From: Candidatus Omnitrophota bacterium | GTDB taxonomy: Bacteria > Omnitrophota > Gorgyraeia > Zapsychrales > Fredricksoniimonadaceae | NCBI GenBank assembly: GCA_013285735.1 | Contig: JABDGZ010000006.1 | Location: forward strand, 1 to 61,499 | Length of the DNA: 61,499 nt | Direction: 5' to 3' | Shown here: one piece after another, positions 42,751 to 42,899 of the stretch | Numbering within the stretch: position 1 is the first letter of the stretch | Layout of the letters: each line of letters opens with the position of its first letter | Position numbers and translations under genes: made by a program | Notes under the pieces: generated by a model | The model's input: only the letters and a program-made list of their open reading frames with translations | What the model was told of the DNA's origin: nothing | Databases searched by the model: none

Positions 42751-42791
42751 TAAAAGCAAAAACCTATTCCTGATTACTACTGGGGAATAGG
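42751..42791 (-). terminator. Intrinsic terminator of the riboswitch expression platform
   Basis: On the minus-strand RNA: CCUAUUCC-13 nt-GGAAUAGG-UUUUUGCUUUU. Confidence 0.65.
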
Positions 42792-42810
42792 CCGCATGGT
42801 CTTCATGCTT

Positions 42811-42899
42811 GTTTCGGCGGCCAGGCTGTCCTATTCCTTTAGGACCCTTTAGCTTTGCGTCCTTACCTTACGGTAAGTTTGCTAGTATCGGTCAAACAG
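42811..42899 (-). promoter_or_regulatory. GEMM-I type cyclic-dinucleotide riboswitch aptamer (candidate)
   Basis: The minus-strand RNA reads AGCAAA-CUUACC-GUAA-GGUAAG-GACGCAAAGCU. It has the same order and spacing as the Vc2 core GGCAAA-CCAUUC-GAAA-GAGUGG-GACGCAAAGCC (recalled). It is followed by a second hairpin with CCUAAA...UAGG and then CAGCCUGGCCGCCGAA. Confidence 0.65.

What the first reader, a model, noticed from the sequence alone, without database searches (positions are those of the whole stretch)
42751..42899. Candidate GEMM-I cyclic-di-nucleotide riboswitch with explicit terminator/antiterminator logic
The minus-strand RNA reads CGAUACUAGCAAACUUACCGUAAGGUAAGGACGCAAAGCUAAAGGGUCCUAAAGGAAUAGGACAGCCUGGCCGCCGAAAC. 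The segment GCAAA, 6-bp stem, GNRA loop (GUAA), 6-bp stem, GACGCAAAGC reproduces the order and exact spacing of the V. cholerae Vc2 core as I recall it. A GYRA loop is matched by a receptor-like CCUAAA...UAGG in the second hairpin, and the 3' end resembles the conserved ..AGC.GGG..ACCGA.. tail. Downstream, CCUAUUCC (42791-42784) can pair with either of two GGAAUAGG copies. One lies inside the aptamer's second hairpin (42837-42830) and would give an antiterminator. The other is at 42770-42763, is followed by UUUUUGCUUUU and would give a terminator. This predicts a ligand-dependent OFF switch. The window also encodes a PilZ protein and an HD-GYP phosphodiesterase, so c-di-GMP signalling is present.
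Basis: partly seen in the sequence, partly recalled or inferred. Interest (0 to 1): 0.75.

Follow-up and report, generated by a model that had tools for sequence, protein, structure and literature searches.

The report
Cyclic-dinucleotide riboswitch, transcription OFF switch
This is a genuine GEMM-I cyclic-dinucleotide riboswitch with its own terminator in front of a double-receiver response-regulator gene; it is an ordinary member of a well-known RNA class, but its ligand pocket carries the adenine that marks the 3',3'-cGAMP-accepting subtype.

Summary
Rfam's c-di-GMP-I model (RF01051) matches window 42893-42813 (minus strand) over its full length, at 60.2 bits against a gathering score of 35 (E 2.7e-9). 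It is the only Rfam hit in the window.

The same leader lies upstream of orthologous response-regulator genes in about 14 further distinct contigs, apparently Omnitrophota or other PVC-group bacteria. Across them the aptamer helices covary, and a hairpin plus U-run follows the aptamer in every case but one.

- The 5' arm of the terminator (CCUAUUCC, 42791-42784) can pair with GGAAUAGG inside aptamer hairpin P2 (42837-42830) or with GGAAUAGG at 42770-42763.
- The aptamer-to-terminator-arm pairing is kept in relatives, partly through compensatory changes.
- Aptamer-less orthologous loci also lack the terminator.

Ligand-dependent termination (an OFF switch) is therefore the best-supported mechanism.

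One correction: the nucleotide aligned to Vc2 G20 is A (42883), here and in 13 of 14 orthologues. This is the GEMM-Ib (cGAMP-accepting or bispecific) signature, so the ligand may be 3',3'-cGAMP rather than, or as well as, c-di-GMP.

Verdict: a new member of a known kind, of modest interest.

The parts
42915..42942 (-). Putative promoter of the leader: -35-like TTGTTT (42942-42937), a 16-nt spacer, and -10-like TATACT (42920-42915).
   Evidence: TTGTTTTT-N14-16-TATACT is conserved in all orthologous leaders. It is also present in riboswitch-less loci such as L004 and L012. It was not listed by the consensus scan because the -35 matches only 3 of 6. Calling it a promoter is an inference from conservation.
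42813..42893 (-). GEMM-I (c-di-GMP-I class) aptamer as matched by Rfam RF01051.
   Evidence: 60.2 bits against a gathering score of 35, E 2.7e-9, full model. Covariation in 12 orthologues: 98% of cells paired against 25-48% when partners are slid, 5 pairs changed on both sides, and 0 of 500 shuffles reached the covariation score.
42811..42897 (-). Aptamer including the outer P1 helix: GUUU 42897-42894 pairs with AAAC 42814-42811, and CG 42890-42889 pairs with CG 42816-42815.
   Evidence: Helices 1 and 2 are 92-100% paired, with one compensatory U-A to C-G change.
42883..42883 (-). Pocket nucleotide aligned to Vc2 G20 (Rfam RF01051 model position 11, unpaired, immediately 5' of GCAAA). It is A here.
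   Evidence: Alignments. It is A in 13 of 14 orthologous aptamers and C in L007. G20-to-A is the GEMM-Ib signature (PMC6140456).
42856..42856 (-). Nucleotide equivalent to Vc2 A47, the first A after GACGC. It is A here.
   Evidence: invariant. This distinguishes the RNA from RF03167 (c-di-GMP-I-GGC), whose consensus has G at this position.
42817..42817 (-). Nucleotide equivalent to Vc2 C92, the first C of GCCGAA. It would pair with the guanine of the ligand.
   Evidence: invariant in all 12 aligned sequences.
42862..42877 (-). First aptamer hairpin: CUUACC / GUAA tetraloop / GGUAAG.
   Evidence: Four of its six pairs show changes on both sides among orthologues, and 100% of cells are paired. 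The loop is GUAA in most, GCAA in L026 and GGAA in L024.
42820..42853 (-). Second aptamer hairpin (P2): outer GCU/GGC, AGG/CCU, inner GUCCUA/UAGGAC, loop AAGGAA. It contains the switching copy GGAAUAGG (42837-42830).
   Evidence: 98.5% paired.
42794..42808 (-). Small linker hairpin GCAUG-AAGAC-CAUGC between the aptamer and the terminator.
   Evidence: Present in the minimum-free-energy folds. The stem is not conserved, but the motif GACCAnGC is. Its role is unknown.
42784..42793 (-). Switching strand, which is also the 5' arm of the terminator: GGCCUAUUCC (core CCUAUUCC 42791-42784).
   Evidence: terminator helix 100% paired in 12 sequences. Its best duplex partner within the aptamer is the same P2 site in 12 of 15 loci.
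42752..42770 (-). 3' arm of the terminator, GGAAUAGG(UU) at 42770-42761, overlapping the U-run UUUUUGCUUUU at 42762-42752.
   Evidence: A hairpin plus a U-run of at least 5 is present in 14 of 15 orthologous leaders.
42728..42744 (-). Ribosome-binding site GGGAG (42744-42740) and start codon ATG (42730-42728) of the regulated gene.
41936..42730 (-). Regulated gene: a 264-aa stand-alone response regulator made of two receiver-fold domains, with no output domain.
   Evidence: Pfam Response_reg over residues 4-112. The AlphaFold2 model has mean pLDDT 89 and shows two (beta-alpha)5 domains. The best PDB matches are the tandem receiver domains of PleD (E 5e-16) and 3mf4/3luf. About 60 full-length homologues were found.

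Best explanation
Proposed mechanism, in order:

1. A promoter about 25 nt upstream starts a leader RNA of about 180 nt. Its first ~85 nt fold into a class-I GEMM cyclic-dinucleotide aptamer.

2. When the ligand is bound, it locks the junction, P1 and the docked P2 hairpin. The GGAAUAGG segment inside P2 is then unavailable.

3. The downstream CCUAUUCC therefore pairs with the second GGAAUAGG copy and forms an 8-10 bp hairpin followed by UUUUUGCUUUU. RNA polymerase terminates before the response-regulator gene. This is the OFF state.

4. Without ligand, CCUAUUCC can invade P2, using the unpaired GGAA of the loop as a toehold. It pairs with the aptamer copy and so delays terminator formation long enough for read-through. 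This is the ON state.

The pocket is of the A20 type (A at 42883, A at 42856, C at 42817). I therefore expect it to accept 3',3'-cGAMP at least as well as c-di-GMP. Which of the two is the physiological signal is open, at roughly even odds.

Shown here: aptamer membership, covariation, conservation of the terminator and of the alternative pairing.
Inferred: ligand binding, the direction of regulation, the kinetic competition and the ligand's identity.
For: Aptamer:
- RF01051 scores 60.2 bits against a gathering score of 35.
- Among 12 orthologues 98% of cells are paired, 5 pairs are changed on both sides, and 0 of 500 shuffles reach the covariation score.

Terminator:
- It is part of the minimum-free-energy fold.
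- It is the only other element in the RNAalifold consensus of the whole leader.
- It is 100% paired in 12 sequences.
- A hairpin plus U-run is present in 14 of 15 aptamer-bearing leaders.
- It is absent from all five aptamer-less orthologous loci: L004/L029, L011/L030, L012, L016 and L031.

Antiterminator:
- The terminator 5' arm finds its best partner at the same P2 site in 12 of 15 loci.
- 90% of cells are paired against 39-57% when partners are slid, and 3 pairs are changed on both sides, reached by 3 of 500 shuffles. Examples: L034 GGGAUAGG/CCUAUCCC and L002 AACAGG/CCUGUU.
- In L024/L025, which have no terminator, P2 also lacks GGAAUAGG. There the start codon is paired in an extended P1 helix, which is a different platform with the same OFF sense.

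Energetics in the window:
- Before the 3' arm is made, the antiterminator fold is at -30.8 kcal/mol and the aptamer fold at -30.5.
- In the full leader, aptamer plus terminator is at -49.3 and the antiterminator fold at -42.6.
- This is the pattern of a kinetically controlled OFF switch, as described for Cd1 (PMC9262584).

A20-type pocket. For its meaning see PMC6140456: G20 is replaced by A in cGAMP riboswitches, Vc2 G20A binds both ligands, and the natural Cbe 1-2 is bispecific.
Against: - No binding or termination experiment exists for this RNA.
- The antiterminator is short (8 bp) and must open a preformed 6-bp hairpin. It is not the minimum-free-energy fold of any truncated transcript.
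- In three relatives the pairing is weak or in a shifted register: L002, L010 and L026.
- The terminator stem is only moderately G+C-rich, has a 13-nt loop, and was not picked up by the consensus terminator scan.
- The variation that supports the antiterminator comes from a few sequences, and related sequences can beat column shuffles without any structure.
- No cGAMP synthase or GGDEF gene lies in the 61-kb window.
- The window does hold a canonical PilZ protein, which points to c-di-GMP signalling.
Confidence: 0.8

Rival explanations
1. Same riboswitch and same OFF mechanism, but the physiological ligand is c-di-GMP only. On this reading A20 merely tunes the affinity downward.
For: - The window encodes a PilZ protein with intact RxxxR and NxSxxG motifs and a REC-HD-GYP phosphodiesterase.
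- A20 aptamers do bind c-di-GMP, through a protonated adenine (PMC6140456).
- No cGAMP synthase was seen in the window.
Against: - A is kept at this position in 13 of 14 orthologues while the neighbouring stem covaries freely. That suggests selection for A rather than G.
- Every natural A20 aptamer mentioned in the papers read here binds cGAMP, either selectively or bispecifically.
Confidence: 0.4
2. Same riboswitch and same OFF mechanism, but it is a selective 3',3'-cGAMP sensor: a GEMM-Ib riboswitch outside the Geobacter group.
For: - The A20/A47/C92 pocket is conserved across orthologues.
- GEMM-Ib riboswitches are defined by this G20-to-A change (PMC6140456; PMC6456294).
- HD-GYP enzymes can act on cGAMP (abstract of bioRxiv 10.1101/600031).
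Against: - A20 alone does not give selectivity. Vc2 G20A and Cbe 1-2 bind both ligands.
- The known GEMM-Ib switches described in the papers read here turn genes ON and control cytochrome, pilus and polysaccharide genes. This one is OFF-type and controls a response regulator.
- No synthase is known for this lineage.
Confidence: 0.3
3. The aptamer is real, but the hairpin plus U-run is a constitutive attenuator or the terminator of the upstream mobA gene, with no ligand-dependent switching. Alternatively, regulation is translational.
For: - Aptamer plus terminator is the thermodynamic ground state by about 7 kcal/mol.
- The antiterminator is never the minimum-free-energy fold.
- A window-specific GGGG...CCCC hairpin around the ribosome-binding site appears in the fold.
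Against: - The terminator lies downstream of a conserved promoter-like element, not between mobA and that element.
- It occurs only where the aptamer occurs.
- The third copy of the motif inside P2, and its compensatory changes, would have no explanation.
- The hairpin around the ribosome-binding site is not conserved.
Confidence: 0.1

Closest known systems
Vc2 (Vibrio cholerae) c-di-GMP-I / GEMM-I riboswitch aptamer, Rfam RF01051
   Same: - Two-hairpin architecture with the same junction sequences GCAAA and GACGCAAAGC and the same ...AGCC...GCCGA tail.
- The same 27-nt spacing between the position-20 and position-47 equivalents.
- A GNRA tetraloop on the first hairpin.
- A full-length match to the covariance model.
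   Different: - A instead of G at the position-20 equivalent (42883).
- A GUAA loop and a short P2 without the tetraloop-receptor bulges; those model positions are deleted.
- The Vc2 sequence and numbering used for this comparison are from my memory. They were cross-checked only against the Rfam consensus and the RF03167 naming.
Cd1 (Clostridioides difficile) c-di-GMP-I transcriptional OFF switch
   Same: - Ligand binding favours a terminator that can coexist with the folded aptamer.
- A transient antiterminator competes with it during transcription.
- The terminator is the long-term ground state (PMC9262584; compare).
   Different: [quoted passage not shown] Here it takes the 3' strand and loop of the internal P2 hairpin.
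- Cd1's selectivity nucleotide is a G (G11); here the equivalent is A.
GEMM-Ib 3',3'-cGAMP riboswitches (Gs1761, pilM and pgcA of Geobacter)
   Same: - The same fold.
- A at the Vc2-G20 position (A14 in Gs1761).
- C retained for Watson-Crick pairing with the guanine of the ligand.
   Different: - The Geobacter examples are ON switches, where ligand prevents the terminator. They precede cytochrome, pilus and polysaccharide genes.
- This one is OFF-type, precedes a tandem-receiver response regulator, and comes from an uncultured PVC-group lineage.
- Its selectivity is untested.
c-di-GMP-I-GGC variant (Rfam RF03167)
   Same: A short P2 hairpin without receptor bulges, so orthologues score 55-60.5 bits on this model, close to its gathering score of 59.
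   Different: - The window scores 54.8, below that gathering score.
- The two pocket positions that are G in the RF03167 consensus (before GCAAA and after GACGC) are both A here. It is therefore not a GGC variant.

Membership tests
c-di-GMP-I / GEMM-I riboswitch (RF01051) | Covariance-model score at or above the curated gathering score. | tested here: met
   60.2 bits against 35, E 2.7e-9, model positions 1-87 of 87.
c-di-GMP-I / GEMM-I riboswitch (RF01051) | Two adjacent hairpins closed by a P1 helix, supported by covariation. | tested here: met
   In 12 orthologues 98% of cells are paired, 5 pairs are changed on both sides, and slid controls give 25-48%.
c-di-GMP-I / GEMM-I riboswitch (RF01051) | Conserved junction nucleotides (GCAAA, GACGCAAAGC, ACAGCC...GCCGA). 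| tested here: met
   All are present and invariant among the orthologues.
c-di-GMP-I / GEMM-I riboswitch (RF01051) | GNRA tetraloop on the first hairpin with a docking site in the second. | tested here: inconclusive
   - A GUAA loop is present, with GCAA or GGAA in two relatives.
- There is no 11-nt receptor; P2 offers only a regular CC/GG, CU/AG helix.
- That GYRA loops dock on plain helices in this class is my recollection. Docking cannot be tested here.
c-di-GMP-I / GEMM-I riboswitch (RF01051) | Located in the 5' leader of a gene on the same strand, with an expression platform. | tested here: met
   The aptamer lies between a conserved promoter-like element and the response-regulator start codon, followed by a terminator.
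c-di-GMP-I / GEMM-I riboswitch (RF01051) | Binds c-di-GMP. | not testable with these tools
   Needs in-line probing or ITC.
GEMM-Ib (3',3'-cGAMP riboswitch subclass) | Adenine at the position of Vc2 G20. | tested here: met
   A at 42883. It is A in 13 of 14 orthologues and C in L007. The definition is from PMC6140456.
GEMM-Ib (3',3'-cGAMP riboswitch subclass) | Selective binding of 3',3'-cGAMP over c-di-GMP. | not testable with these tools
   A20 is not sufficient: Vc2 G20A and Cbe 1-2 bind both ligands.
GEMM-Ib (3',3'-cGAMP riboswitch subclass) | A cGAMP synthase (Hypr GGDEF or DncV-type) in the same organism. | not tested
   - No GGDEF or CD-NTase was found among the window's ORFs.
c-di-GMP-I-GGC variant (RF03167) | Score at or above the gathering score of 59. 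| tested here: not met
   54.8 bits in the window. Relatives score 55.2-60.5.
c-di-GMP-I-GGC variant (RF03167) | G at the pocket position directly after GACGC (consensus GACGCGAA). | tested here: not met
   The window and all relatives have GACGCAAA.
Intrinsic (Rho-independent) terminator | Stable hairpin immediately followed by a U-run. | tested here: met
   - GGCCUAUUCC / 13-nt loop / GGAAUAGGUU, then U5GCU4.
- Conserved in 14 of 15 leaders.
- Missed by the simple scan because the loop exceeds 8 nt.
- Actual termination was not tested.

The most novel reading that the evidence does not exclude
The A20 pocket is conserved across this uncultured Omnitrophota/PVC lineage. It could mark a selective 3',3'-cGAMP riboswitch of OFF type. 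That would extend riboswitch-mediated cGAMP signalling beyond the Geobacter group to a new phylum. It would also tie the signal to a PleD-like double-receiver protein that always sits at the head of the hemA / F-type ATP synthase gene cluster, and so to respiration.
Probability: 0.25. Interest if true: 0.55.

Novelty: new member of a known kind. Interest (0 to 1): 0.3.

Why it matters
As a riboswitch it adds little, because a routine Rfam scan annotates it. Its value is local.

- It shows that a cyclic dinucleotide directly controls a stand-alone tandem-receiver response regulator in an uncultured PVC-group bacterium. That gene is syntenic with hemA and the ATP synthase operon in every relative examined.
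- The conserved adenine at the selectivity position makes it a cheap, concrete test case for whether cGAMP signalling exists in this lineage.
- The set of orthologous leaders is a small natural experiment on how expression platforms are swapped around one aptamer. It includes a terminator type, a start-codon-sequestering type, insertion-bearing copies and aptamer-less copies.

Tried and rejected
Things that led nowhere:
- The genome-contig scan gave only one short contig, labelled 'uncultured Planctomycetales'. The nearest named proteins are 'Candidatus Omnitrophica' at 59% identity. Taxonomy is therefore only 'PVC group, probably Omnitrophota'.
- The three primary GEMM-Ib papers (Kellenberger 2015, Nelson 2015, Ren 2015) are not held in the library. 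I could not cite selectivity determinants beyond position 20, or the frequency of A20 in the family.
- No reference aptamer sequences are printed in the papers I could read.

Readings considered and rejected:
- Membership of RF03167 (GGC variant). The score is below the gathering score and the defining G is absent.
- A window-specific GGCC:GGCC alternative pairing seen in truncated folds. It is not conserved.
- A GGGG/CCCC hairpin that sequesters the ribosome-binding site. It is not conserved.
- A canonical tetraloop receptor in P2.
- The 61-aa plus-strand ORF at 42809-42994. I treated it as spurious because it overlaps the aptamer.
- Riboswitch control of the whole downstream hemA-atp cluster. 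This is left open, not claimed: a 13-bp hairpin with a U-rich tail and a promoter-like site lie between the response-regulator gene and hemA.

Full report
**1. Is it there?**

This is RF01051 (c-di-GMP-I) at 42893-42813 on the minus strand: 60.2 bits against a gathering score of 35, E 2.7e-9, covering model positions 1-87 of 87.

The 8-mer GGAAUAGG occurs on the minus strand at 42837-42830 and 42770-42763, and its complement at 42791-42784. The second copy is followed by UUUUUGCUUUU.

The side remarks also check out:
- A PilZ-domain protein lies at 4445-4813 (-), with RxxxR and NxSxxG motifs.
- A REC-HD-GYP protein lies at 12006-13055 (-).
- No GGDEF domain was found in any ORF of the window that I scanned.

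**2. Context**

The aptamer lies between a MobA-like gene (43656-43003) and a 264-aa response regulator (42730-41936), all on the minus strand.

The regulated protein:
- It has a Pfam receiver domain at residues 4-112 and an unassigned C-terminal half.
- An AlphaFold2 model built on 32 homologues (mean pLDDT 89) shows two (beta-alpha)5 domains.
- Its best PDB matches are the tandem receiver domains of PleD and of 3mf4/3luf.
- It is therefore a stand-alone double-receiver protein without an output domain.

The family has about 60 full-length members at 39-75% identity, nearly all from metagenomes. The few named ones are 'Candidatus Omnitrophica'. The single hit in the genome collection is a MAG labelled 'uncultured Planctomycetales'.

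In all relatives examined the gene order response regulator, hemA, (Tmemb_14), atpI, atpB is kept, while the upstream neighbour varies.

**3. Comparative evidence for the aptamer**

I collected orthologous loci from metagenome contigs and from exact-protein look-ups. The leader with the aptamer is present upstream of the response-regulator gene in:
- the window;
- L001/L003, L002, L007, L008, L010, L022, L023, L026, L032 and L033;
- L005, which carries an insertion;
- L006 and L009, which are truncated by the contig end;
- L014/L027/L028;
- L024/L025;
- L034, whose response regulator is only 46% identical.

These are documented.

The leader is absent from L004/L029, L011/L030, L012, L016 and L031. 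In several of these the conserved promoter-like TTGTTTTT-N-TATACT element abuts the gene directly.

On a 12-sequence alignment, a structure of outer P1, the GC clamp, the first hairpin and P2 gives:
- 98% of cells paired, against 25-48% when the 3' partners are slid;
- 5 pairs changed on both sides, four of them in the first hairpin;
- 0 of 500 shuffles reaching the observed covariation score.

RNAalifold recovers the same helices on its own.

**4. The expression platform**

The minimum-free-energy fold of the leader contains the aptamer, a small linker hairpin, and the hairpin GGCCUAUUCC / 13-nt loop / GGAAUAGGUU followed by the U-run. The simple terminator scan missed it only because its loop limit is 8 nt.

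Terminator:
- A hairpin plus a run of at least five U follows the aptamer in 14 of 15 leaders.
- The helix is 100% paired in 12 sequences.
- It is the only other element in the alignment-wide consensus fold.

Antiterminator (the pairing between the terminator's 5' arm and the copy inside P2):
- In 12 of 15 loci the best duplex partner of that arm anywhere in the aptamer ends at the same P2 position.
- On the alignment 90% of cells pair, against 39-57% when slid. Three pairs show changes on both sides, a count reached by 3 of 500 shuffles.
- Clear cases are L034 (aptamer GGGAUAGG with CCUAUCCC) and L002 (AACAGG with CCUGUU).
- L026 appears to keep a 7-bp pairing in a shifted register (CUAAGGA with UCCUUAG). 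I read this by eye.
- L010 is weak, with 5 contiguous pairs.

Two correlations add weight:
- The terminator occurs only where the aptamer occurs.
- The one aptamer without a terminator (L024/L025) also lacks the GGAAUAGG motif in P2. There the aptamer ends 3 nt before the ATG, and in the minimum-free-energy fold the 5' flank GUUCAU pairs with AUGAAU, burying the start codon in an extended P1 helix. That is a translational platform with the same OFF sense.

**5. Energetics**

| Transcript | Antiterminator fold | Aptamer fold |
|---|---|---|
| Ending before the 3' arm (at 42784) | -30.8 kcal/mol | -30.5 kcal/mol |
| Ending before the 3' arm (at 42771) | -33.6 kcal/mol | -31.4 kcal/mol |
| Extending through the U-run (to 42750), aptamer fold with terminator | -42.6 kcal/mol | -49.3 kcal/mol |

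The antiterminator can therefore only act transiently during transcription. This is how the well-studied Cd1 OFF switch is described (PMC9262584).

Both terminator arms lie outside the aptamer, so ligand binding cannot prevent the terminator. It can only withdraw the competitor. OFF is thus the only riboswitch logic the anatomy allows.

A plausible route for the ligand-free state is toehold invasion through the unpaired GGAA of the P2 loop. That ligand-dependent docking of the GUAA loop onto P2 would protect this hairpin is my inference.

**6. The ligand**

In the Rfam alignments, the unpaired nucleotide immediately 5' of GCAAA is G in both the RF01051 and RF03167 consensus sequences. It is A in the window (42883) and in 13 of 14 orthologues. 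L007 has C.

I equate this position with Vc2 G20 on three grounds:
- G20 must be free to present its Watson-Crick edge to the ligand (PMC6140456).
- The spacing to the A after GACGC is 27 nt, as in Vc2 (the Vc2 sequence is from my memory).
- The RF03167 'GGC' consensus differs from the parent family exactly at the base after GACGC. This fixes position 47, and hence position 20.

The window's pocket is then A20/A47/C92, at 42883, 42856 and 42817.

According to PMC6140456:
- G20 is replaced by A in cGAMP-binding GEMM-Ib riboswitches.
- The Vc2 G20A mutant binds both c-di-GMP and cGAMP.
- Natural A20 aptamers range from highly cGAMP-selective (Gs1761) to bispecific (Cbe 1-2).

I therefore expect this RNA to accept 3',3'-cGAMP at least as well as c-di-GMP. 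The base stays A while the adjacent stem covaries, which suggests selection.

Selectivity cannot be computed, however. No cGAMP synthase is visible in the window, and the PilZ protein shows that c-di-GMP signalling exists in this organism. I put roughly even odds on cGAMP being a physiological ligand.

**7. Comparison with known families**

- It is a member of c-di-GMP-I/GEMM-I by Rfam's curated threshold and by structure.
- It carries the GEMM-Ib pocket signature, but GEMM-Ib membership proper (selective cGAMP binding) is untested.
- It is not a c-di-GMP-I-GGC variant. The window scores 54.8 against a gathering score of 59 and lacks the defining G. Relatives hover at that threshold only because the model has a similarly short P2.
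- It works like Cd1. [quoted passage not shown]
- It differs from the Geobacter GEMM-Ib switches in direction (OFF rather than ON) and in the kind of gene it controls.

**8. Verdict**

This is a real, conserved, standard riboswitch. It is a new member of a known kind, with interest of about 0.3.

The most novel reading still open is a selective cGAMP OFF switch in a PVC-group lineage. I give it a probability of about 0.25.

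Noticed in passing
window 42577-42575 (codon 52 of the response regulator, 42730-41936, minus strand): The regulated response regulator has Asn (IITNA) at the phospho-acceptor position. 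At least 90% of the 31 aligned homologues have Asp there; P0024 also has Asn. In this strain the receiver may not be phosphorylatable.
   Followed up: partly
L024 2408-2510 and L025 (Ca. Omnitrophica MAGs GCA_028870995.1 and GCA_028865175.1): An orthologous aptamer with no terminator and no visible Shine-Dalgarno sequence. The aptamer ends 3 nt before the ATG, and the 5' flank pairs with AUGAAU, including the start codon, in the minimum-free-energy fold. Its P2 loop lacks GGAAUAGG.
   Followed up: partly
L005 1262-1420: A 68-nt insertion forming two strong hairpins sits between the G and the C of the GACGC junction of an otherwise intact aptamer plus terminator. Rfam no longer detects this copy. 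It could be a disrupted riboswitch or a tolerated insertion.
   Followed up: no
L014 / L027 / L028, aptamer P2: About 30 extra nucleotides, forming an additional hairpin (GGUCGGAUUGACCGAC...), lie inside P2. GGAAUAGG and the terminator are retained.
   Followed up: no
L007 about 1350: This orthologue has C, not A, at the position aligned to Vc2 G20 (CGAUAAACGCAAAC). It is the only exception among 14.
   Followed up: no
window 41896-41860 (minus strand), between the response-regulator stop and the hemA start: A 13-bp inverted repeat (UAGUCCAGUAUCA...UGAUACUGGACUA) is followed by UUCUUUU and then the hemA ATG. It overlaps a promoter-like TTGATT-17-TATAGT with an upstream TG. It could be the terminator of the response-regulator transcript or a hemA leader structure.
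   Followed up: partly
window 11890-11905 and 38088-38103: The palindrome TCCCGCGAAAGCGGGA occurs twice, against 0.03 expected. Both copies are intergenic within minus-strand gene runs. The second copy creates the spurious '[10 protein letters not shown]...' N-terminal extension of the atpA ORF; the true start is probably the ATG at 38061.
   Followed up: partly
window 42801-42794 and the aligned positions in relatives: A motif GACCAnGC just 5' of the terminator's 5' arm is conserved in most leaders, although the small hairpin it belongs to in the window is not. I found no pairing partner or role for it.
   Followed up: no
window 4445-4813 (-) and 12006-13055 (-): A small PilZ protein with intact RxxxR and NxSxxG motifs, next to a family-2 glycosyltransferase gene, and a REC-HD-GYP phosphodiesterase. 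These are evidence that cyclic-dinucleotide signalling operates in this organism.
   Followed up: partly
window 55447-61488 (-), 2295-4412 (-), 52520-54076 (-): Three long ORFs of 2013, 705 and 518 aa have no Pfam match at E <= 1e-5.
   Followed up: no
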